Below are positions 1,791 to 59,611 of a stretch of DNA of 64,000 nt, in pieces. The notes under the pieces were generated by a model, which saw only the letters and a list, made by a program, of their open reading frames with translations, made no database searches and was not told the origin of the DNA. Source of the DNA: Eledone cirrhosa (Eukaryota); NCBI GenBank assembly GCA_964016885.1, contig OZ024740.1, positions 116,126,001 to 116,190,000 on the forward strand. Direction: 5' to 3'. Made by a program: the position numbers and the translations under genes. How positions within the stretch are numbered: the first letter of the stretch is position 1; every line of letters starts with the position of its first letter.

Positions 1791-3691
1791 TATGCTAATG
1801 TCCCGCCTTTTAAAAAGAATACCCTCGATGTCACTCACCACTAAACCCACATTAACCTTATCTTATCTTCCATGAAAATCTATTCAGAAAAAATTTTAAG
1901 AAAAGCTAGTTGAGATTTATTTCCTAAGGAGAAATCCTCTGCTTGTTATATTATAACATGAGTTATAAAATGTATGACGTATTTTTTGTCAATCAACTCT
2001 CATACTTATAAAGATACTCAACAGCATATAATATCAATTAAAAGATACTAGAAATACAAACATACTTTGAGGCTGATAGAGATTTACCACTTATTGGTTT
2101 TTAACAGGTGCAGTGGAGTTGTGTCAGTAACCAAGTCGTAGAAATTCGATGAAAATTCTAACAACTGAAGAAATAATTGAAAAATAAATGTACAAGTTTT
2201 TTTCCCTCATAATTTATCAAAATAGTTCTTCAGTGATTGCACTGCGTCATTGATAAATGAGTTTTAAATCTTTTTCTTCTAACAACATGCAGTAGCTACA
2301 ATGACGGATATACAATATATACCCGTATTAATCCTTTTGTTATCGAGCCACCTGAAACCACCCTTTATTCTATGATGCAAAAAAAAAACATCCAGCATAA
2401 TTTTATGTCACAATGTTTATAGAATTATGTTCCAAACACCAACTTAATGGTTTCTGATTTAAGCACAATGCTAACAATTTGAGGGAGGGAAAAAGTCGAT
2501 TAAATCGACTCCATTGTGGTACAGGTGCTATATTTTATCGACCCTGTAAGGGTGAAAGCAAAGCTAACATCGACGAGATTTAAATCCCAAACACCAACTT
2601 AATAATGAAAAAGTTGTTTATTTTATTACATCCTTGGAAATTCTTGATTATTTTCAAAATTGTTTAAAAATGATAGGCAATGCCTGTCATTTGAACTATA
2701 GTACTGAAAAGGACAATGGATACATTAATCATCGGAATTATGAAGCGATGTTCCATCATTATGTCGTCAAAGCTAATTATTCCAGAGTTCACTGCTTTTC
2801 ATACGGGCACTGTGGCTGTTGGGGGTTTACATCCTCGTCTATCTGCTCTTACAGCTATTTGTTGGGGATTCTATATTGTAGCCTCTTGTTTCAAATTAGT
2901 AGACCAGTCAAAACACCGGATAAAATGTTTTTTCGCAGTATTCGTTACAACTGTGTACGTTCTGAATCAACTTTGTCTTTCAACGTTCTAAGTAAAAATC
3001 CAGTGCTAGGATCGATTTCTCTTTCATCCTCTTTCATTCTCACTTTTCTCTCTGGAAGAAATAAGTTGGGTTCCGACCTGGAGAGGAATGGACTCTGCCA
3101 GAATTAATTGGATATGACACGCCATGTGTCACGACGGGGCCACCACAACTTTATTAGAAATTCAGAGTCCATGGATGGGTCTCTTACTAGACTGAGTCTA
3201 TGAGACACTATCTGTCAATTAAATCGATAACAGTACTTTAATGGTACTCTATTTTAACAACCCCAGGAAGATGTAAAGTAAACTTGAGCTCAGTATGATT
3301 TGAACACAGAACATAAACGGCAGGAATTAAACACCACACACCATTTCTAACGATTCTCTCAACCAACCACATGAAGACATTCTCCTATATACAAGCCTAC
3401 AAGCTAGGTAGATAATAGAGGAAGATAACATTAATAAAATATAATAAAACCACCAAACAAAAATATAAACAAAAGAATAAACCTGTAACATGAAGCAAAG
3501 ACACTTCAAAAGATTTGTTAATCAACACATTCTGTTAACGAGTTACTGAATGTTGATGCATTAAGTCCTGTCTTAAGATTATGAGAACAGAACAAGCTGC
3601 ACCACTGTACACCCCCCTCCCACTCTCAAGCGTGAACCTAATACTAACACTTTGTACTGCACTCTTCGCTTTGGTTTTGTTTTCTGTTTTA

Positions 3692-3757
<66 letters not shown>

Positions 3758-3797
3758 AGAGAGAGAGAGAGAGATACATATATGCACATATACATAA

Positions 3798-3872
<75 letters not shown>

Positions 3873-4834
3873 ACACACACACACACAAGCACATACATAA
3901 TCTATTCTGACAGCAACTGTTAAAGTTTGACAATATCAGCTTGGAAGTAATTATGTTTGCTACGACTTAATTAATCATTTCATTAATTTTCCTCTTTTAC
4001 AGAAAAAAATATTTCTACATATTCCTAGCTAAAAAAATGTGTAAATCATATTCTCCTGTATATATTTTTAAATAGAGATCACGCGACTGAGCTTAGATAA
4101 TACCACATGTTTAGAAACATCAAGCAAATACGTATGCCACAACAATAAAACTGTACTATCGTGTGTAGCTCTTTTTATTGTGTTTATGTTTCTAAAAGCT
4201 CCATATATTTCATGTATGCACAGAAGCAATAACGTTGCAGCTCACGAGATTCAAAACATTCTTTATCTTTCATCGAAATGTTAAATCCATTCATATCTTT
4301 TGTGTAGTTCTTAGCAATGGTGGGGCCTAGATAATTTTGTTGCCCCTTTCTCTCCCACTCCTACTCTCCACCGCTCTCTCTCTCCATCTCCCTCTATTCT
4401 TTCCCTGTTTGTATGTCTGCCTGTTTGCCCCCTATCTCTCTCTCTCTCTCTCTCCCTTCCTGGCACACTAATTCACGTGCGTCAAATTCCAGTCCAGATG
4501 GGTACATTGAATTGAAGAGATAGACGTTAGATATAGTACACACACATACATACACACACACAAACACACACACACATACACATATATTTAGACACACACT
4601 CTCACACATATACAAACATGTATATATACGCAAGCACACATACACACACAAAAACATACACTTATATTTTACAGTTTTTAAATTAGAAGCCTCGCTGTGA
4701 AAAGAATGAAGTGAAAGTACACTTTCTATTATACCCCCAGGGCACAGAAAGGAACAGAGATTATCTTTACGTATTTCTGTCGTTTCTTTAGTCTATAGGT
4801 TTTCTTTACACACAGACAGAGAGAGAGAGAGAGA

Positions 4835-5130
4835 GACGATTTAATATGGGACAGGGAAAAGAAGGCATACACAATAGTGGAAGTTAGCTGCCCAGCAGAT
4901 GCCAAACGAGAATATCTATGCAGAACTAATGAGAAATCTGTAGATACTCCACCCTGACTATACCTTCACATTTATACCGGTGATTATTGGGGCACTGTGA
5001 TATGTTAGTAACTGCCTCAGTACAAATCTTGAGAAGCTGAGCTTCATAGAAACAAGAACACAACTAGTTAGGAAATTACAAGTACAAACAATTAATGGAA
5101 CGGTAAAAATAGGTAAAATATTCTAAACAT
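4835..5130 (+). mobile_element. C-terminal restriction-like endonuclease (RLE) remnant of an R2/R4/NeSL-type non-LTR retrotransposon
   Basis: Translation across frameshifts gives DLIWDREKK.YTIVEVSCPAD..YAELMRNL..YTFTFIPVIIGAL..LQVQTINGTVKIGK, resembling the RLE PD..D..E(V)S.P and P(V)IIG(A)LG motifs. Confidence 0.65.
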
Positions 5131-8003: not shown

Positions 8004-8149
8004 ATATTGTTATACTTTGGGAGGGTCATGTTGCCAATAAGAAACACATGCACCAGGCTTATTGGCAACATGACCCTCCCAAAGTATAACAATATCGGTT
8101 TCAACACACGATTTCAGATAAAGAATCTTGCTAAACAAATTCAGAAACG

Positions 8150-15824: not shown

Positions 15825-16174
15825 CAGCTGTCCCCCCCCCTCCCCCGGTATTTGCGGGGGTTACTTTCTTAGAGCACCCGCAAAGAGTGAAAAACCAATA
15901 TTATTGGACGTGGTCCATAAAAATGGCTATAAACGTCAAAACAACGTAATATATAGGCCGGCAAATACGGTATATTGTTATTAATAATTTAGAGTTAAAA
16001 AGCGTGAAAAGATAAATATTACCACGAAAAAGCCATAAAAATATCGCAGAAGATATTTACGATTGTGCGAATATGCGGTGATTTCCACGAAAATGATTAG
16101 TTAGGTTTCTAAGGAAAATTTCGCGAATAACCGGGACTGCGAACGCCGGGACCGCGAATGCCGAGGGTACACTG
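15825..16174. mobile_element. Tigger/pogo-like MITE
   Basis: TA|cagctgtcc..cggtatttgcggggg..ccgcgaatgccgagggtacactg|TA; imperfect TIRs with TA TSD. Confidence 0.8.
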
Positions 16175-16177
16175 TAC

Positions 16178-16242
<65 letters not shown>

Positions 16243-16248
<6 letters not shown>

Positions 16249-16645
16249 TATTCCGGGTTCAAAAGAGGGTAACCACAGTAAGTAAGGTACACAATACAAG
16301 GCAGAGTGTAAATATTTAATATAAAAAGGCTTCTCCAGGACTAGAACTGTTTCATTCGAGAGAAATCATCCGGAAGCCGACTGTCCAAGTAATATGGTGG
16401 TATTTATATCTTTTCTGGTGGTAGGAGAGGGTGGTGATTGGGATGGGTGGAGGTTATTGGTTGATGGGTTGAAAGAAAATGGAATTTTTTTAAAAACTAT
16501 ATTTTTTACCTCCACCCATCCCAATCACCACCCTCTCCTATCACCAGAAAAGATATAAATACCACCATATTACTTGGACAGTCGGCTTCCTGATGATTTC
16601 TCCCGAATGAAATAGTTATAGTTCTGTAGAAGCCTTTCTATATTA
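16243..16645. mobile_element. fold-back PLE-terminus element (arms ~16316-16454 / 16508-16645) with family 2 HHR on both strands
   Basis: Mirror arms visible; bounded by (TA)n; same family at 23731-23878 and 57401-57451. Confidence 0.8.
16584..16634 (+). ncRNA. type-I hammerhead ribozyme motif (family 2)
   Basis: GGCTTC-CTGATGA-tTTC-tccc-GAAt-GAAA-TAG-ttatagtt-CTG-TA-GAAGCC: 6 bp stem I, 4 bp stem III, GUA triplet. Confidence 0.75.
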
Positions 16646-16656
16646 TATATACATAT

Positions 16657-17088
<432 letters not shown>

Positions 17089-29980: not shown

Positions 29981-30135
29981 ATGCGTGTATATATATATAT
30001 ATATATCGTAAAGTAAGTTTGTTGTTGATTTTTTAGGTCAACAATCTCTGGTGTGTTCCAACTTAAGCACTCAACGTCGTGGTTCTGTAAATGACACACA
30101 CACACACATCTATATGTATATAAATGTCTCGTTCT

Positions 30136-30173
30136 ATTTTCTGACGAAGGACTGGCGTCCGAAACGTTAAGAT
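30136..30173 (+). ncRNA. minimal type-I hammerhead ribozyme motif (family 1, best-preserved copy)
   Basis: ATTTT-CTGACGA-A-GGAC-tggc-GTCC-GAAA-CG-TT-AAGAT; stem I pairs fully with one G-U. Confidence 0.7.
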
Positions 30174-30241
30174 TCTTTTCCTACTATATAATTTTTCATT
30201 GTATTCTGCCGTTTGCTTTATTATTTCTGTTTGCCTTTGTT

Positions 30242-32036: not shown

Positions 32037-32066
<30 letters not shown>

Positions 32067-32071
<5 letters not shown>

Positions 32072-32246
32072 TTCATTACGTTTATTGAGAAGTGACGCGC
32101 GTTTCGCTATTGATCAGCTTAAGGTTCTTTCTGCTGAGGTCCGACGAGCTTTTGATTCCAGAGTGGGGCCAAATCAAAACAGATAGAACCTTGAGTTGAT
32201 CAACAGCGAAACGCGAGTCGCTACTCAATAAACGTAATGAAGGCAT
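32067..32246. repeat. fold-back element (~70 bp arms) with HHR-like GAAACGCGCGTC end
   Basis: atgccttcattacgtttattgag..gacgcgcgtttcgct mirrored by agcgaaacgcgagtc..ctcaataaacgtaatgaaggcat. Confidence 0.75.
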
Positions 32247-32289
32247 AACAATTCGTCCTTTTACTATAATATATATATATATATATGAA

Positions 32290-33270
32290 ATAAACGAACA
32301 AAACACAGAAGGCAATTGTGCACAGTTATAGTAAGTTCAGGCTTTGTGGAAGTGGAGGAAGTTTCAATATTTCAGATATAAATCCTTCATCAGGAAAGTT
32401 CGGATAGGGGGGAGAACAGGAACTCCAAGAGGGAGTTAGGACGATTTTAAGGAGGGATGTTACAAAGCCAAGAACACAATATAATGAGAAAAATAAAAAT
32501 AAAATATGTATAAAAATTTAAAAAATAAAAAAATAAAAAATGTAATATATATATATAGGCTTTAAAATGGAATGAGAATAAGAATAAAGCAAGAACGGGG
32601 GGGGGGGGGGGTTCGTCGTCAATTGTCTACTGGGGGTCTCGGATATTTCAACGCTTTAAAGACAATATATCTACCCCGAGAGCGTTCAATAACTGGGTAA
32701 GTTATTGGGAAAACGGAGGAGGGAGAGAAGGAAAATAGAAGGGAAAAGGGAAAAGGAGAAGAAAAGAGAAAACACCGAAAAAACAACAAACCGAGAAACG
32801 TGCAAGCAACTTAAGGTAAGAAAATCCAAGACCACAGCGGTAACAGAACTTAAGTTCGAGAGAGTGTGGGCGAACGAAAAGACACGACTGACCCTAGCGA
32901 GTGTAAGTGATAAAAGGACTGCTAGAGGGTCAGGCGAGGGAAACAATGGGGTGGCTGCCAGAGAGAGGGTGAGTGAAAGTGAGAGGGCGAAAGGGAGAGG
33001 AAGAAAGAAGGGGAAGAATAGATAGTAACGAAATAGGTAGGTAGAGGGTGAGAGAAGACGGGTCACAGCGAAACATGATAAAATATATGAATAGGATGGC
33101 TGTGTAGTTGGTAGTTAAGTTAGGCTTAAAAATGGAATGAGAATAAGAAGAAAGCAAGACCTCCAGTAGACAACTGACGAGGACCCCCCTCCCCCGTTCT
33201 TGCTTTCTTCTTATTCTCATTCCATTTTTAAGCCTAACTTAACTAGCAACTACACAGCCATCCTATTCTT
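32290..33270 (-). mobile_element. PLE terminal-repeat-like element: HHR at 32362-32397 (-), hairpin 33089-33268, partial repeat 32556-32640
   Basis: Minus strand TTTC-CTGATGA-A-GGAT..ATCT-GAAA-TA-TT-GAAA; 32556-32640 equals the reverse complement of ~33155-33237. Confidence 0.65.
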
Positions 33271-34162
33271 CTATATATATATATATATATTGGAAAATGT
33301 GTGTAATCCTTGGTACAGTTAGGTATATTAAGACAGGGGGGAAGAAAAAATGGCTTCACTTGTGCTTTCAACAAATTTATTTTCTTCACAAAATCCAAAA
33401 AGAATTTTTCTTAAAAAAAATTATTTTATAAATTAAGTTGTTGGTTGTTGGTTAGGTCTTAGGAGTTCTTGGTTAACGTAGGAGGTATTGTTTCGTTTTT
33501 AGAAAGACCTTTCACGCTGAGGTGCGCTTGTCAAACTGATGTGTATGTGGTGTGTTGTTCTATATATAGGGATTTAACATGTCTGTGGTGTGGTAGGGGT
33601 TTCTTTTCTCCCCCTTTAATAAGTGCATGGGTGTAGGTGTGTTGAAAAAGTGTTCATAGCAGTAATGAGTTGAGACGGTGAGTAGGGTTGGGTGGGGAGA
33701 AACTTAGCAAGTGCGGCCTGCCCCGGTCATTCTCGAAAAATTCCTTTATTCAGGGGAAAAAGCTTTTAGCATCGCTTTTGTGTTGAGAATGGTCACAGGC
33801 AAATCGCACCTGTCAAGCTTGTGAATAATTATTTTTTTCTTTTTTTCCTGAAGAATTTTTCTACGTTCATCCCAAAGTTAGTCCTTTGTTCAACACACAC
33901 ATATATATGTGTGCATATATGTACATACACACACGGGCATATGTAGGAATATATAGGCACACACCATCAATCACACACCCCTGTACAAATACATACACAA
34001 AAACATATAGAGACACATATAAAAACACACATACACATACGTACACACACGAATATGTACACGTACCTCCACATGGGTATATATATATATATATACACAT
34101 ATATACACACATACATACACATATACATACATACATATACATATATATATATAAATATATAT

Positions 34163-34193
<31 letters not shown>

Positions 34194-34285
34194 TACACAC
34201 ACACACATACACATATATATATATATATATAGATAGATATAGATAGGTAAATATACACGGGTGTGTATGATTGTGTATAGAAGAT

Positions 34286-34679
34286 TATATTAATAAGAGG
34301 AATTCCAACTTTGTCTGATTTACTCGTTTTATTTACAATCCTTTAAAATATATATAATATGGTATTATAATGAAATAGTATGATAGAATATTAAATTCTA
34401 AGTGTTAATTGAACAAGTACTTTCATGCTTTCGCAATCTTCAGGTTCATGATATGTGGTGACAGTCGAGTTTGCAATTTTCAACTGTGGAAAATTGCAAA
34501 CTCGACTGTCACCACATATCATGAACCTGAAGATTGCGAAAGCATGAAAGTACTTGTTCAATTAACACTTAGAATTTAATATTCTATCATACTATTTCAT
34601 TATAATACCATATTATATATATTTTAAAGGATTGTAAATAGAACGAGTAAATCAGACAAAGTTGGAATTCCTCTTATTA

Positions 34680-34686
<7 letters not shown>
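34286..34686. mobile_element. ~400 bp near-perfect palindrome with intact HHR motif on both strands (34410-34448 -, 34522-34560 +)
   Basis: Arms ~195 bp around spacer caactgtgg (34481-34489); TGAAC-CTGAAGA-tTGC-gaaa-GCAt-GAAA-GTAC-TT-GTTCA. Confidence 0.85.
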
Positions 34687-34746
<60 letters not shown>

Positions 34747-35091: not shown

Positions 35092-35424
35092 GTGTGCGTA
35101 TACACGAGCACATAAAGACACATATACACATACACATACATATACATATACATACACACATATACACACATACATCTACATACATACATACATATACACA
35201 AACAGAAACATACACACATGTACACACATATGTACATATATGCACATACATACACACACACACACATATATATAGGTACATACACATACATACACACACA
35301 CATACATCCATACATCCCTACAAACATATATGTGTGTGTCTCACCGTTCATTCAGATATTCATGTGTATACATAAGAAGAGGGGTGGGGACTAGGGAAAT
35401 GGAATTTTACCTCCGAGTGTTAAT

Positions 35425-37054
35425 TCATTTTTTCGTGTTCAGTAGTGGTTTAAATTTTTCAATGAAGAATTCTTCTTTATATCTGCGGAAATGTTCGTTA
35501 TCCGACCATATCTTGAAGAAAGGGAAGATTGTGAATTTTCCCTTCCTGCATGATGCAAAGTGTGCGCTACATGTGGTATTTCTGACTGTGGGGTCTTTAA
35601 TCTGTTGTTTATGTACCCGGACTCTATCATGTAATCCCGTTCCGGTTTCCCCAATGTAATACTCTTTACACTGTGGACATGTTGCGCAATATATTAGGTT
35701 TTTCGTTTTGCAGTTCATGTTAGCATTGACCTTGAAATTATCATGGTTTTTGAATGACAACTGTTTGCCCTCTTCGATGAGTTCACAGGTTCCACATCTA
35801 GGGTCCCCGCATTTCGTCACTTGCATTGATTCCATGTTGGTCGTAAATTTTGCCTAGGTAAATAGTTTTTTAAGGTTGGGTGCTTGGCGTCTGCTATAAA
35901 TTATCTGTGTGTTTTTTAAGAGTGAATTCATTTTGGTAGATTGCTGTAGAATCGGGAGATACTGCTTAGCAGTTTTCACAATGTTGATGTTCCCTGGGTT
36001 GTGAGTGATGACAAAAGAGATAGCAGGGTTTTCTTTTTTATGTTGTGGGTTTGGTTTTCTCAGTGTTGTTATTGGGATGTTCTTAGCCTTGAAGATGGCT
36101 GCGTTGATGAGTTTCATCGGGTATTCTTGTTTTTTAAGGAATTTTTTCAGGTCACATAATCTTTTTTCTTGTAGTACGGGGTGTGTTGCTATAGTGCAGA
36201 TGCGCCTTGCCATGTTGAAGGGAATGTTCCTTTTCGTATGTGAGGGGTGTGCTGACCGGAAATTTAAGTATTGGTGTGTGTCAGTGGGTTTGCAAAATAG
36301 GTCCGTTATGATATTTTCCCCTTCTTTAATGATGAGGATATCTAGAAAGGGCAGTTCCTTTTCGTTACATTCCATAGTGAATTGTATAGCTTCATGAAGC
36401 CTGTTTAGGATCGAATAAAATGTTTGTAGGTCTGTTTGGCTTCTGTTCCAGAAGATGAAGCAGTCATCTAGGTAACGTTTCCAGTTTTTATTAATGTAGA
36501 AGGCGAAGTCGTGACTGAATGTTATCTGTAGTTGGGAATATAATTTTGCCTCTAAGTGACCCATAACGAGCGTTGCATATGTAGGGGCCACTTTGGTACC
36601 CATGGCTGTTCCTTTTATTTGTAGATAAAGTTCGTTGTCAAAGAGGAAGTGGTTGTTTTCCAATACTAATTTAAGTCCTTCCAAGATGAATTCTTTGGGG
36701 AATCTTTCTGAAATGTGACTTGAGTGTTTTGTAATCCAGAAGTCCACAGCTTCAATCCCTAGGTCGTGTGGGATGTTAGTGTACAGGCTTATTACATCAA
36801 AACTGACTAGGATTGTATCCTGGTGTACTTTTTGGGGGATATAGTTAAGGAATTCCATATCATCTCTGATGTAGCTTGGAACTTTTTTACATAGGGGTTT
36901 GAGTATGATGTCTAATAGGTTGCTTAGACGTTGTGTGCTTGAGGCTGGGCCAGCAATAATGGGGCGTAATTTTAAGTCTGTCGGTTTTGGTGCTTCGATG
37001 TATGATGTATTTTTCCCTTTTATGTTGTTTTGGATTTCTATGGATTTGTGAATT
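35425..37054 (-). pseudogene. Penelope-like (Neptune/Nematis-type) RT plus C-terminal GIY-YIG endonuclease; 5'-truncated, one in-frame TAG
   Basis: LRPIIAGP, SFDVISLYTNIPH, GTAMGTKVAPTYA, RYLDD, LPFLDI, KPTDTHQYL..HP; CGDPRCGTC linker; NLIYCATCPQC..YYIGETG..RVRVH; ORFs 35854-36858 and 35425-35835 are in frame across ACC TAG GCA. Confidence 0.95.
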
Positions 37055-37144
37055 ATATATATATATATATATATATATAGTGGTTGAACACTGGAAGGTA
37101 ATATCCGTAGTGGTAGAACACTCAGTCCATGGGACGAGTTAGGT

Positions 37145-37424
<280 letters not shown>

Positions 37425-39762: not shown

Positions 39763-39932
39763 AATATGTTTAACCCCGACGCAGAGCTCAGGCCGTTTCG
39801 TTGGCTATTTACACATTTAGTGCAGAAATAGCCGTCGGGGTTAAACATTTTTCTATTACCCACTCTAATACCCTCAGTATCGAGTACTCTGGTGCGTTAT
39901 GGTCCATCTGGTTCCTTACCACACCTGCTTCG

Positions 39933-40020
<88 letters not shown>

Positions 40021-40236
40021 CAGAAAGGGTGAGGTAAAATATCAGGTGGACCATAACCCACCAGAGTACTCGATACTTGGGGTAGTAGAGTGGGTAATAT
40101 GAAAAGATTCAAGACCCCGACAGCCATCCTCCGCCCGTTTTGACAGCTAGATCATCCGAACTCTTATATATATATATATGCAAAGTTTTATTTAAATTGT
40201 TGGGTTAACAACGAGTAAATATTTATAACTGATTTT

Positions 40237-40317
40237 CATGTGTAATCTAACCTTGGGTTGACCAATGCCTTGTGAGTGAAAATTTGAAAAATCGGTAGAC
40301 AGAAACTGCAGAAGATC

Positions 40318-40375
<58 letters not shown>

Positions 40376-40456
40376 GATCTTCTGCAGTTTCTGTCTACCG
40401 ATTTTTCAAATTTTCACTCACAAGGCATTGGTCAACCCAAGGTTAGATTACACATG
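40237..40456. repeat. perfect 220 bp palindrome: SINE tail duplicated in inverted orientation around (AT)26
   Basis: catgtgtaatctaacc..gaagatcttc-(AT)n-gaagatcttc..ggttagattacacatg. Confidence 0.9.
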
Positions 40457-43717: not shown

Positions 43718-44979
43718 CTATAGCACCTCTTTGTAGACGATATTGCGTGTCATCCCTTGAGGAGAGTAAGCAAAAAGTCCATTCCTGCTCCCTGCGCGGG
43801 AACAGGCAACATAAAGTTGGCCATGGGAGAAGCATGGCTCCCCCAAATAGATGCCCGCCACCGACAATGTTTGCCCTTGTGACTTGTTAATGGACATGGC
43901 AAAACATGGTCTAACCGGGAATTGGGATCGCCGGAAATCGAACGGGATATCTGAAGCCGAGGGGAAAAGGTTCATCCTTGGAATGAAAACATTCTCCCCT
44001 CTTCCGCATCCCGTTACAATGGTGGTCTCAATCAAGTGGGTGTCAGTGACTTGACGACCATGCGAGTACCGTTGCACTGCTTTTGTGGACGCAAGTTCCT
44101 TATTAGCATAATGGGACAGCCAACCTTAAGCTTAATAATGTAAGGTGGGAGCCCTGGGGGCTCAAGGAGATTTAATAACTCAACCGGATAATTAACGATA
44201 TCGTCGGGGTCTGATTTGAAGATGTGCTCTTTACCGGGAATCTTCTCAATCAGCTGCTCGTTAATAAAATTAACCATGGTATTTTTCGGAGCAAGGATGG
44301 CTCTTTCGCTGAGCCAATCGAGGTTTTTAAAGTTAGATGAGACATTAGGAAAAACTGCTTCCCAAAGGTCAGAAGGGCTGCTCACAAAGTTGCACAGGGT
44401 GTCGATTGCTATGCCGCCCTTGTCATCCGCAGGGATCTTGCCCTCACCAAGTGCTAAAATGTTCTGTGCTGCAGACATGTTGTCACCATGCAAATGAGCA
44501 CGCATATTTGTGCTCAGGTACAAACTATTCACCTGGAGCCACAACATGGACGACTTAAGACAGGCACGCACTTCATCAGCTCTTGTCCATTTGGGGATGA
44601 CAGGCAGCGTTTTCCGAAAATCCCCTGATAACAGAAGGGTTACGCCACCCATAGGAGCCATAGAATCCCTAATGTCTTTCCGGGCCCTGTCCAATGCCTC
44701 AAGGGCACCCTTGTGTGCCATTGTGCACTCATCCCAAACAATGAGGCAACATCTTTTGAGAACCAGAGCTTTGTGTGAACTCTTGCTGATATTGCATGTT
44801 GGTGTCTCAGTTTTTACTAAATCCAAAGGGAGTTTAAAGGTTGAATGTGCTGTCCTGCTTCCCGGCAGCAAAGTAGCAGCGATCTCGGACGATGCAACGG
44901 ACAACGCAACTTTTTTCTCCTGACGAATCTTAGCGAGAATCAAATTCGTTACAAAAGTTTTTCCGGTACCCCCAGGAGC
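43718..44979 (-). pseudogene. Helitron PIF1-family (SF1B) helicase, frameshift near 44050
   Basis: APGGTGKT (Walker A, 44956-44979), TAHSTFKLP, IVWDECTM, SGDFR, STNMR, RAILAPKN, CNGTR, QFPVRPCFAMSINKSQGQTL, FSHGQLYVACSR, TRNIVYKEVL. Confidence 0.95.
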
Positions 44980-45014
44980 GTTTTTTTTATTGGGGGGATC
45001 AGGGGTTTTTTTTT

Positions 45015-45743
45015 TTACCTTGAGGTATAACCAGTCAGTAGTTCCTTCAAAGGCTCTGGCGGTTCCGGAAGAGGGGGCAAGGTGATCTTACCGTTTAAGC
45101 AGCACATTGCAGGTGGCTCCCCAACCCACTTTGTAGCATTGCAGAATTGGCAATTGAAGCGCATCTCGCCTATATTTATGTCAGAGCGCATCGAGTAATT
45201 AACGTTTTGCTCATACTTGAAAGCCCGTAGGTGCCAGTAAGGGCTGTTGGGGCTCGTCACACCGCGTGCAGCTTCTCGCTGTCGACTGTTACGCTTGAAC
45301 GTAGAACATTGGTCGTGTGGTTGGTGGGAAGGTCTGGCAGCAATAGCAGAAGCAACATTTGCAATGCTAATGGACCGCCCGTCTGCATCTTCAGAAGCCA
45401 TGGAAGTAGTCATAGCCGCAGCGTTCGGAGGAAGGCGAGCCGTCCGTTGTTTTAAACGTTCCAAAGACCTGGAAGCAGCATTAGTCGCATCGTTTCTAGT
45501 CAGGCGCTTCGACCTTTGTTCACGGCTCTCTGAAGCCCTGGAAGAAGCCTGGTATGAAGCCATTTTGGCTAGGCGTGCGGTGCGCTGTTGGAAACTTTCA
45601 GCGGCTCGACATTCTGCTGAACGTAAGGCTGTCTGTGAAAGTCTTGAAGCATTTTCCTCAGAGGACTCGTTTGCTATAGTAGCCTTTTGCGCCACTGCTG
45701 ACGCGGTATGTCGACTGAGGCGACTTCTCTTTTTAGGTGGCAT
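45015..45743 (-). CDS. Helitron N-terminal ORF: STPR-like 23-aa repeats plus Zn-finger-like motif, truncated before Rep
   Basis: ESSEENASRL / ESFQQRTARL / ESREQRSKRL / ERLKQRTARL at exact 23-aa spacing; IGEM..CQFCNATKWVGE..CCLNGKITLP..PPEPLKELL. Confidence 0.8.
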   Translation of the reverse strand: MPPKKRSRLSRHTASAVAQKATIANESSEENASRLSQTALRSAECRAAESFQQRTARLAKMASYQASSRASESREQRSKRLTRNDATNAASRSLERLKQRTARLPPNAAAMTTSMASEDADGRSISIANVASAIAARPSHQPHDQCSTFKRNSRQREAARGVTSPNSPYWHLRAFKYEQNVNYSMRSDINIGEMRFNCQFCNATKWVGEPPAMCCLNGKITLPPLPEPPEPLKELLTGYTSR

Positions 45744-46126
45744 TTTATGTCCAAAAGAAAGGGTGAAAGTTACTTCTACAGAAAAATTGACTTTGAAAGT
45801 CTACTGTCTGTTTATGAATATTGTTATTGTTGTTGTGATACAAATGTTAGTAAGTAAATGGGTATCGAAAAATAAAGGGTGAAAGTTACTTCAACATAAA
45901 AATTGACTTTGAAAGTATAAGGCTGATAATTGAATGTAAAAAGATTGATAAGAAAGACCCCCCAAAAAATTTACAGGTATTTGTATGTATGTGTGTATTT
46001 TTATGTCGAAAAGAAAGGGTTAAAGTTACTTCTACAGAAAAATTTAGTTTGAAAGTGTAAGGCCGATGTGTGTGTAAATTAAGTGACAGGTATTTGTATG
46101 TATGTGTGTATATGTATGTATGTGTG

Positions 46127-57397: not shown

Positions 57398-57551
57398 AAT
57401 GGCTTCTACAGGACTAGAACTGTTTCATTCGGAGGAAGACATCAGGAAATCATATATATATGTAGATAAATCTACCAAAATATACGGTAGTGTCCAATCC
57501 GTATGAAGAACTCAATGTAATCCAAATATCATGAAAAGAGAAGATGTATTC

Positions 57552-58128
<577 letters not shown>

Positions 58129-59611
58129 GGCAACACTCATCTTTTTCCATTTTTCCGAGGGTTATAAACCCCACTATCAGGCTAGAAATTTCTTTAGTCT
58201 GAAATACGGTGAAAGCTTATAATTTCTAATTTCTAATTTCAAACTCGCGCACCGTTTCAAAAACATACTTACATGTTTACGTTTATAATTTGCTTGTATA
58301 TATATATATGTAAAATTGGTGAATTTGAAGTTATTAGAACGTCGGATAGAATACCTCGCGATATTTGTTCCGACATTTTGTGGTCTGTTCAAATACTGCT
58401 AAGATCAACTTTATTTTTCATCAATTTAAGATCGATAAATAAAGTATCAGTTCAATACTAGGGCTGATTTTTCCTTTGTATTTCTTCCTCACTTCCTTTT
58501 ACTCGCCGGAGAAGGATGTACCTAGGTGTACATATATATATATTATTAGTAGGATTAAAAGTTTGACCAAACAATTTCTGATTTCACTCTATCCGGGGTC
58601 AACTGAAACTGAGAAATATCAATCTGTAGATGTAGAAGTAAATGTCTTTCTATTTTCTAAAGGCAATATTTGGTCGTCTTAATTTTGGAATATTTACTTT
58701 TGCGTCCCCAGATCAGATTGATATTTCTCAGTTTAAGAAGATTCCGCTTCGGGTGAAAGCAGATATTATTTGTTTAAACTTTTAATCTGACTAATAATAA
58801 ATATTTTCTCTACGGGTTTATATATATATATAGACAGTTCAAGAGTAAACCAATCTTAAATAGAGAGATAGAAGTAGGATAGGAGAGATTGGTGACGGTG
58901 TTAGAAGCCAAAGCTTAAAAGCAAGTGCTCGATGTGCAATATGCAGTGGAAAGCAGTTGGAAAACTGGATTCATGCTGAGGTTAGGTGTACAGAGCTGGA
59001 AATATTCAGTAGTTAAGCAAATCAAGACCACAAATTCACATAGAATACATTAGTAACAGAGTATCAACATTAAGTGCAGTTTAATATAGAAAGAGGATAG
59101 TAATGTCAGTTCAGAATTGTTTCACTACTCCATATAATGTTTCTGAATCAATCGACGGTAAGAAAGTTATTGATTTGGTGCAGAGAAATATAAGTAACAT
59201 ACATGTAGAATAATATTATGGAGCAGATCTTCGGAACTTGGGGAAATATAATGAGATTATTACTATATATAAAGCAGAAATAAAAATAAAATGGGAGGGT
59301 TACGTGTCCGTAATGAATCCTCAGATTAGCAACTCCCTAGATGGGGCACCATGGCACTGGAGAATTTCATGTGTATGGTATAAATAAACATTAGATGTTT
59401 GTCGAGGTTGAAAGTAAACACTGCTGCCTATCACATACCAAAATGGGTTCCTGTAGGAAAACTATCTAATTGTATAGAGATGGCTTTCAAGGGAGGTAAC
59501 TCCTTGGAGAGCCAAGAATCCCACTAGGAGCTGTAACCAATGTAGAGTAGGGAGGTAGCTTATAGGTATAGTTGGAGTGGGATTTGTAGCTAAGATAATG
59601 CCAGGGAGGTA

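What the first reader, a model, noticed from the sequence alone, without database searches (positions are those of the whole stretch)
34286..34686. 400 bp palindrome with two intact back-to-back hammerheads
Both arms keep a complete motif: 5 bp stem I (TGAAC/GTTCA), CUGAAGA, a GAAA-tetraloop stem II, GAAA, palindromic AGUACU stem III and a CUU triplet. Transcription from either strand gives one sense ribozyme plus its antisense. The hairpin could therefore silence the ribozyme or make it depend on co-transcriptional folding order (inference). The arms differ by about one base, suggesting a recent origin.
Basis: partly seen in the sequence, partly recalled or inferred. Interest (0 to 1): 0.75.

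Follow-up and report, generated by a model that had tools for sequence, protein, structure and literature searches.

The report
Head-to-head Penelope retroelement stub
This 400-base palindrome is two back-to-back end pieces of a young, abundant Penelope-type jumping gene, repeated with the same centre at over 120 places in the genome and likely a by-product of insertion with no switch function, but sister copies that begin exactly at the predicted ribozyme cut suggest the ribozyme likely does cut RNA in living cells.

Summary
The palindrome and both minimal hammerhead motifs are real. Each arm is the end repeat (pLTR) of a young 4.2-kb Neptune-type Penelope-like element (RT + GIY-YIG) with at least 1,491 pLTR copies. 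Near-identical palindromes with the same centre occur at 121 loci. The centre lies 31 nt below the parent's TATA box, a likely transcription start. One arm carries the tail in 67 of 73 cases, never both. Arms share private variants, several subfamilies contribute, and the ribozyme core is not protected. So this is a recurring insertion product of a known layout, not a regulatory hairpin; the scan found this layout before in other genomes. The added result is at family level: 13 insertions begin exactly at the predicted cut (window 34555/34556), against 2-4 at four control positions and 4 at the self-pairing stem III word. When one arm starts near the cut, its partner usually does too (12 vs 2). 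This is likely a genomic record of in vivo cleavage and of one RNA species copied twice. No RNA data were available.

The parts
34235..34285 (-). One-sided 'tail': the sequence that follows the pLTR in the full-length element, just before ORF1 (outer end uncertain by a few bases in TA repeats)
   Evidence: matches L042 after its pLTR; on exactly one arm in 67 of 73 palindromes
34286..34487 (-). Left (tailed) pLTR arm; its 5' end is the family's common start ACAGTTG, a likely transcription start
34486..34684 (+). Right (tail-less) pLTR arm, ending in the (TA)n flank; carries a rare variant G at 34641
   Evidence: that variant occurs at 10 places in G000
34482..34488 (.). Head-to-head junction on the quasi-palindrome ACAGT, 31 nt downstream of the parent's TATAAAA box (box itself absent here); recurring junction variant with G at 34488
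34522..34560 (+). Minimal type I hammerhead motif; predicted cut between 34555 and 34556 (pLTR position 70/71)
   Evidence: family junctions at position 71
34410..34448 (-). Mirror copy of the hammerhead motif; predicted cut between 34415 and 34414
34212..34234 (.). Left (TA)n target flank
   Evidence: (TA)5 or more at both outer ends in 56 of 64 intact one-tailed palindromes
34679..34702 (.). Right (TA)n target flank; no target-site duplication can be read

Best explanation
The palindrome is a short head-to-head insertion of two pLTR copies of a young Neptune-type Penelope-like retroelement in a (TA)n tract, likely made in one integration event and likely without a function of its own. Shown: the parent element, the copy numbers, the fixed 5' end 31 nt below a TATA box, the tail on one arm only, variants shared by both arms, and the mixed centre base. 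Inferred: the element's RT-endonuclease nicks both strands of the TA tract and primes two cDNAs, one from the tail site (about pLTR 250-258) and one from the pLTR end (about 197). Both run to the 5' end of the same RNA species. The two cDNA 3' ends (...ACTGT) anneal around a T.T mismatch, or the RT jumps from the RNA onto the other cDNA, which leaves T or A at the centre. In this copy the template was uncut RNA that began at the likely transcription start, so both hammerheads were copied whole. In roughly 5 of 100 sister arms the template likely had been cut by the hammerhead; those arms begin at position 71 and lack the motif.
For: Parent: L042 reads pLTR-tail-ORF1 (449 aa)-ORF2 (775-codon frame with RT, CX4CXXC and GIY-YIG)-pLTR-tail, unit about 4.2 kb. 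Copies: 1,491 exact pLTR starts, 684 preceded by the element's own 3' UTR, 279 starting at ACAGTTG without it, 121 exact palindrome centres. Of 73 palindromes examined, the tail is on one arm in 67, on neither in 6 and on both in 0; the centre is T in 40 and A in 27 relative to the tail (p=0.14). In 66 with both arms intact, the arms agree on subfamily markers (15 of 18, 20 of 21, 16 of 18 carriers), share 17 variants seen at no other locus, and differ at 1.8 sites against 3.5 between loci. Long head-to-head pairs have one tailed and one tail-less outer end in 31 of 33; 21 of 37 joints show 1-7 nt overlap. Solo copies start at the same base. Short-read contigs of run X1 hold both junction types as loose ends. 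In vitro a related PLE protein nicks and extends both strands, starts at two sites that delimit the tail, and is predicted to be a dimer (PMC11167929).
Against: No RNA data, so the transcription start is inferred from box spacing and the pile-up of 5' ends; no cap-derived G is evident at the junctions. Gene conversion between arms could also produce shared variants. L054 and L096 carry the same 48-nt duplication (positions 71-118) on one arm only, and on opposite arm types, which fits two templates better than one. Six of 73 palindromes have no recognisable tail. D. virilis Penelope has an internal TATA-less promoter (PMC2377424), so weak outward transcription from the centre is not excluded.
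Confidence: 0.85

Rival explanations
1. Single-molecule fold-back (self-priming): one cDNA or RNA snaps back at the junction and copies itself, as proposed for rotifer Penelope elements.
For: Arms share private variants and 5' ends; palindromes at inverted junctions were read as self-priming in PMC3846280; some junctions hold short templated inverted pieces (L122, L137, L156).
Against: Loops of 1 nt (121 loci) or 0 nt (L168) cannot be closed by one strand without later trimming. Fold-back from the tailed arm predicts one centre base, yet 27 of 67 have the other. Long pairs have arms of very different 5' extent, and either arm can be the longer.
Confidence: 0.1
2. The palindrome is itself a non-autonomous mobile unit (MITE- or retrozyme-like) copied from a master locus.
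For: 121 loci with the same centre and nearly the same length.
Against: At least three subfamily backgrounds, both centre bases and many junction variants occur; only 19 variants occur at two or more loci, 15 of them at exactly two; the parent's promoter boxes are missing.
Confidence: 0.04
3. A selected RNA switch: the hairpin silences the ribozyme or makes cleavage depend on folding order.
For: A read-through transcript would fold into a -316 kcal/mol hairpin that excludes the ribozyme fold.
Against: No constraint on the core among sister palindromes (p=0.72); a single arm hardly forms stem I either (0.002); the layout is a known insertion product.
Confidence: 0.02
4. For the sister junctions at position 71: reverse transcriptase stalls at the intermolecular AAGUACUU duplex or at stem I, or the site is a joining hot spot, without RNA cleavage.
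For: The 8-bp duplex begins at U70, next to the junction; counts are small and positions were chosen after seeing L142; a related element gave no reads starting or ending at its cut site (PMC11167929); other agents' notes report self-pairing words as hot spots.
Against: All 16 hits end at exactly one base and lack the self-pairing word; several are blunt joints to unrelated sequence (L163, L165, L168). The 8-nt self-pairing word itself gives only 4 palindromes. A stall would more likely fall before stem I (about position 76), and controls at 74, 79 and 86 are low.
Confidence: 0.3
5. Assembly or library artefact (a read folded on itself).
For: Near-perfect palindromes in microsatellite flanks are a typical artefact; no read or contig laid here spans this locus with its unique flanks.
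Against: One-sided tail, 2 arm mismatches, fixed centre at 121 loci with different flanks; short-read contigs of X1 show the inverted junction.
Confidence: 0.01

Closest known systems
Insertion unit of endonuclease-positive Penelope-like elements: inverted 5'-truncated copy plus one-sided tail (Craig et al. 2021, PMC8557442, passages read; Arkhipova et al. 2013, PMC3846280, passages read)
   Same: Head-to-head pLTRs, tail at one end, small palindrome at the junction, partial tandems, (TA)n target without readable target-site duplication.
   Different: Here both arms are the shortest complete copies and meet at one fixed base at 121 or more loci; the tail is about 50-60 nt rather than 30-40; the one-tail rule and matched 5' ends are counted.
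[quoted passage not shown]
   Same: 5-bp helix I, extra base before helix II, palindromic helix III, dimer layout; that paper already notes dual motifs 100-700 bp apart on opposite strands.
   Different: Helix II is only 3 bp and lacks G10.1-C11.1; the triplet is CUU with possible A14-U17 mispairing; the paper had no in vivo evidence, whereas this family has genomic junctions at the predicted cut.
Poseidon element PAc of Anolis (Frangieh et al. 2024, PMC11167929, parts 1-2 of 4 read)
   Same: Two reverse-transcription starts that delimit the tail, both strands nicked and extended, AT-rich target, uncut RNA as main template.
   Different: PAc RNA reads at the cut site were not found; here about 5 in 100 short arms start there. 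The parent here has a Cys-rich linker and an upstream ORF1 in another frame.
Twin priming of LINE-1 (recalled; a paper search for Penelope plus twin priming gave 2 listings, not read)
   Same: Two primers from the two target ends, an inversion, microhomology at the joint.
   Different: In L1 the two cDNAs cover different parts of one RNA; here both cover the same 3' part, so that part is copied twice.
Non-LTR retrozymes (bioRxiv 10.64898/2026.07.22.740005, part 1 of 5 read)
   Same: Derived from PLE pLTRs, type I hammerhead; L166 is a tandem unit that starts at the cut site.
   Different: Retrozymes are head-to-tail tandems with a working dimer in one transcript; this is head-to-head and cannot supply its own partner.

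Membership tests
Endonuclease-positive Penelope-like element | RT followed by a C-terminal GIY-YIG endonuclease in the parent element | tested here: met
   RVT_1 E=2.9e-6 (below Pfam's cut-off, 27.6 vs 29.6 bits) and GIY-YIG E=3.2e-6 in L042 ORF2; DKG and YLDD motifs visible
Endonuclease-positive Penelope-like element | pLTRs in tandem or inverted arrangement | tested here: met
   tandem spacing about 4.2 kb and many -/+ pairs; maps
Endonuclease-positive Penelope-like element | [quoted passage not shown] | tested here: met
   67 of 73 short and 31 of 33 long pairs
Endonuclease-positive Penelope-like element | RT groups with PLE RTs in a phylogeny | not tested
   no tree built; no reference set fetched
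Neptune clade | CX2-5CxxC linker before the endonuclease, CCHH within it, (TA)n target | tested here: met
   CNDNRCGTC and C..C..H..H read by eye in ORF2; TA flanks 56 of 64; definition from PMC8557442
Neptune clade | Placement against Nematis and Hydra by RT tree | not tested
   clade name rests on motifs only
Minimal type I hammerhead of PLEs | CUGANGA and GAAA boxes, UH site, helix I, palindromic helix III | tested here: met
   dimer layout is the minimum-energy fold of two copies
Minimal type I hammerhead of PLEs | G10.1-C11.1 pair closing helix II | tested here: not met
   helix II closes with U-A, flanked by U and U
Minimal type I hammerhead of PLEs | Self-cleavage as a dimer | not testable with these tools
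   indirect only: 13 insertions start at the predicted cut
Rfam hammerhead families | Covariance-model match | tested here: not met
Non-LTR retrozyme | Head-to-tail tandem units each with a hammerhead | tested here: not met
   arrangement is head-to-head

The most novel reading that the evidence does not exclude
This family is a genomic record of how Penelope elements integrate. Every insertion is two cDNAs, one started at the tail site and one at the pLTR end, copied from the same RNA species and joined at their 3' ends. The RNA has two natural 5' ends: the transcription start, which gives this 400-bp palindrome, and the hammerhead cut, which gives a shorter ribozyme-less palindrome (L168), template jumps and a tandem unit starting at the cut. 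That would be direct evidence that a minimal PLE hammerhead cleaves in the germ line and that the cut RNA is reverse transcribed. Matched cut ends on both arms would fit either one RNA copied twice or two RNAs cut together in a hammerhead dimer.
Probability: 0.55. Interest if true: 0.65.

Novelty: new member of a known kind. Interest (0 to 1): 0.42.

Why it matters
The locus itself is ordinary. The family matters because how Penelope elements form their inverted structures, and whether their weak hammerheads cut in vivo, are named as open questions in the papers read (PMC8557442, PMC4209133, PMC11167929). A young family with over a thousand near-identical copies turns both into counts: one tail per insertion, matched 5' ends, a mixed centre base, and a class of junctions on the predicted cut. 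Each is a prediction for an in vitro assay. Over a hundred near-perfect hairpins could also feed dsRNA silencing of the family if read through (untested).

Tried and rejected
Rfam: no hammerhead match; only generic hairpin (miRNA) models below threshold. Bacterial promoter scan: not applicable to this genome, not used. Sequencing runs: no RNA holder listed, so nothing on expression. The RAD-seq reads laid hardly cover the centre and do not test this locus. First idea, two RNAs from different source loci: rejected because arms agree on subfamily markers. Idea that G at 34641 marks a source element with two different pLTRs: not supported; 10 scattered copies, on tailed and tail-less arms. One search misjudged tails because alignments ran into TA repeats; redone. 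The control at position 74 was not independent: 5 of 7 hits are joints whose partner arm reaches 71 or 72. The binomial test of matched ends (6 of 8) is biased, because the search pattern misses start/cut joints that end in T; replaced by inspection from the other side. No cap-derived G found at junctions. Target-site duplications not readable. Lunse et al. (PMC5785218) is not held; known only from the review PMC6765202 (passages). Four paper searches bearing on prior reports listed no paper whose title or abstract start reports PLE insertions beginning at the hammerhead cut; most subscription papers, and all supplements, were not seen, so absence from print is not shown. No earlier scan note matched this sequence.

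Full report
Observation. The arms 34286-34484 and 34486-34684 pair around T34485 with two mismatches. Both hold the motif described: stem I 34522-34526/34556-34560, CTGAAGA, a 3-bp stem II with GAAA loop, GAAA, the palindrome and CUU, with the predicted cut after 34555. Stem II lacks the usual G10.1-C11.1 pair and U17 can pair with A14. Two copies fold into the double-hammerhead layout, but the over-paired form is 2.6 kcal/mol more stable than the active one. Rfam does not recognise the motif.

Parent element. The arm is a young repeat in a 3.0-Gb genome whose organism was not identified: the 40 best-scored places are 99-100% identical, and a 28-mer from its start occurs 1,491 times. Many copies lie 4.2 kb apart in tandem. 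One such unit (L042) reads pLTR, tail, ORF1 of 449 aa without Pfam match, a 775-codon frame with RT, CX4CXXC and GIY-YIG, a 3' UTR with CCAAT boxes and TATAAAA, then pLTR and tail. This is an endonuclease-positive Penelope-like element, Neptune type by motifs; no tree was built. The window's extra 51 nt are the tail.

The palindrome is a class. The exact centre occurs at 121 loci. I examined 73: 60 from the first 100 rows, 4, and 9 (these 9 were selected for likeness to the window's arm). The tail is on one arm in 67, on neither in 6, on both in none. The centre base is T in 40 and A in 27 relative to the tail. Seven loci with a damaged arm were dropped from the variant count. In the other 66 the arms agree on three subfamily markers (15 of 18, 20 of 21, 16 of 18 carriers), share 17 variants found nowhere else in the set, are identical in 23, and differ at 1.8 sites against 3.5 between loci. 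So the palindromes arose many times from different source copies, and both arms of one locus come from one source. The catalytic core is not spared (9 in 13 sites against 102 in 159, p=0.72), and 56 of 64 have TA repeats at both ends. Longer head-to-head pairs follow the same rule: one tailed and one tail-less end in 31 of 33; the other two were cut off or unreadable. Of 37 joints, 21 show 1-7 nt overlap, 3 are blunt, 12 have inserted bases, and one is L142.

Why this centre. Arms and solo copies begin at ACAGTTG or CAGTTG; 279 arms start there without the parent's upstream bases. The first A lies 31 nt below the T of TATAAAA, the usual spacing for a polymerase II start (established knowledge; not measured here). 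ACAGT is its own reverse complement except for the middle base, so two cDNAs ending there can anneal around a T.T mismatch, which predicts the mixed centre (inference). The window has a variant joint with G at 34488, identical in L224 and L258. The promoter boxes are left behind, so the stub is likely silent unless read through; an internal promoter as in D. virilis (PMC2377424, passages) is not excluded.

A second 5' end at the predicted cut. L142 has both arms starting at position 70-71. A pattern for position 71 preceded by two non-T bases gave 16 hits; all are true junctions at exactly 71, from 13 insertions. They include a spacer-less palindrome of two cut arms (L168), jumps from ORF sequence or TA repeats (L163, L165), and a tandem 845-nt unit starting at 71 (L166). 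The same pattern at other positions gave 6 hits (4 distinct) at 79, 2 at 86, 3 at 51, and 7 at 74, of which 5 are joints whose partner reaches 71 or 72. Thirteen against 4, 2, 3 and 2 gives p=2e-4; the site was chosen after seeing L142 and the patterns differ in conservation. The 8-nt self-pairing stem III word centres only 4 palindromes. L054 and L096 have a duplication and L055 a deletion that start at 71. Partners match: 12 loci have both arms at 70-75 and 2 mix start and cut. None of 50 start-class arms examined, including all 7 rows of the first 100 that could be a blunt start/cut joint, has a partner at 71. By the two pattern counts (16 and 279) about 5 in 100 short arms are of the cut class. 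Short-read contigs of run X1 hold both junction types; X1 may be the sample of the assembly. Stalling of the RT at the RNA duplex remains a rival.

Mechanism. Most likely the element's protein nicks both strands of a TA tract and primes two cDNAs, from the tail site and from the pLTR end. Both run to the 5' end of the same RNA species and are joined there. This matches the in vitro findings for PAc: both strands extended, two starts, a predicted dimer, uncut RNA as main template (PMC11167929). Whether one RNA is copied twice or two RNAs of one source are used is open; L054 and L096 lean to two.

Comparison. Inverted pLTRs with a one-sided tail and junction palindromes are described (PMC8557442; PMC3846280), and so are paired minimal hammerheads on opposite strands (PMC4209133). 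Earlier notes of this scan describe the same layout in at least ten genomes and were cautious about cut-site junctions; one prompted the control. The papers read state that in vivo evidence of cleavage was lacking or not found.

Verdict. Real, recent and ordinary as a locus; the regulatory reading is not supported. The family-level counts give testable rules for PLE integration and a likely record of in vivo ribozyme cleavage. Interest 0.42.

Noticed in passing
L042:1263-2609 and 2519-4843: ORF1 (449 aa, no Pfam match) overlaps the RT frame, which is in the -1 frame, with TTTTTTA at 2534, a possible slippery site; the two-frame layout recurs in several copies. ORF1 with a frameshift is drawn as optional for PLEs in PMC8557442.
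   Followed up: partly
L168 (G000:C4:42559891-42559942): Perfect spacer-less palindrome of two arms that both start at the predicted cut; no hammerhead left; tail on one arm.
   Followed up: yes
L166 (G000:C3:222071943-222072815): Tandem 845-nt unit from the predicted cut into ORF1, as from a circular RNA or an end-to-end jump; retrozyme-like.
   Followed up: partly
L054, L096, L055: The same 48-nt duplication (positions 71-118) on one arm in two loci, once tailed and once tail-less; a 39-nt deletion from 71 on both arms of L055. Unexplained.
   Followed up: partly
window 35400-37330: Older related Neptune-type fragment on the - strand (RT and GIY-YIG frames at 37152 and 35853) with its own 182-bp palindrome at 37145-37326.
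   Followed up: no
window 16172-16778, 16820-17087, 32039-32286, 33083-33274, 39828-40127, 40237-40456, 57544-58034, 58536-58804, 8004-8095: Further long inverted repeats, most beside TA tracts; one (16172-16778) holds a hammerhead-like core. Some are likely head-to-head stubs of other families.
   Followed up: partly
window 30135-30175 and 32330-32399: Other hammerhead-like cores of different sequence.
   Followed up: no
window 44000-45800 (- strand): Frames with a helicase-like GGTGKT motif, by recall Helitron-like.
   Followed up: no
L122, L137, L156: Joints with several short templated inverted pieces between the arms, as from repeated annealing and extension.
   Followed up: partly
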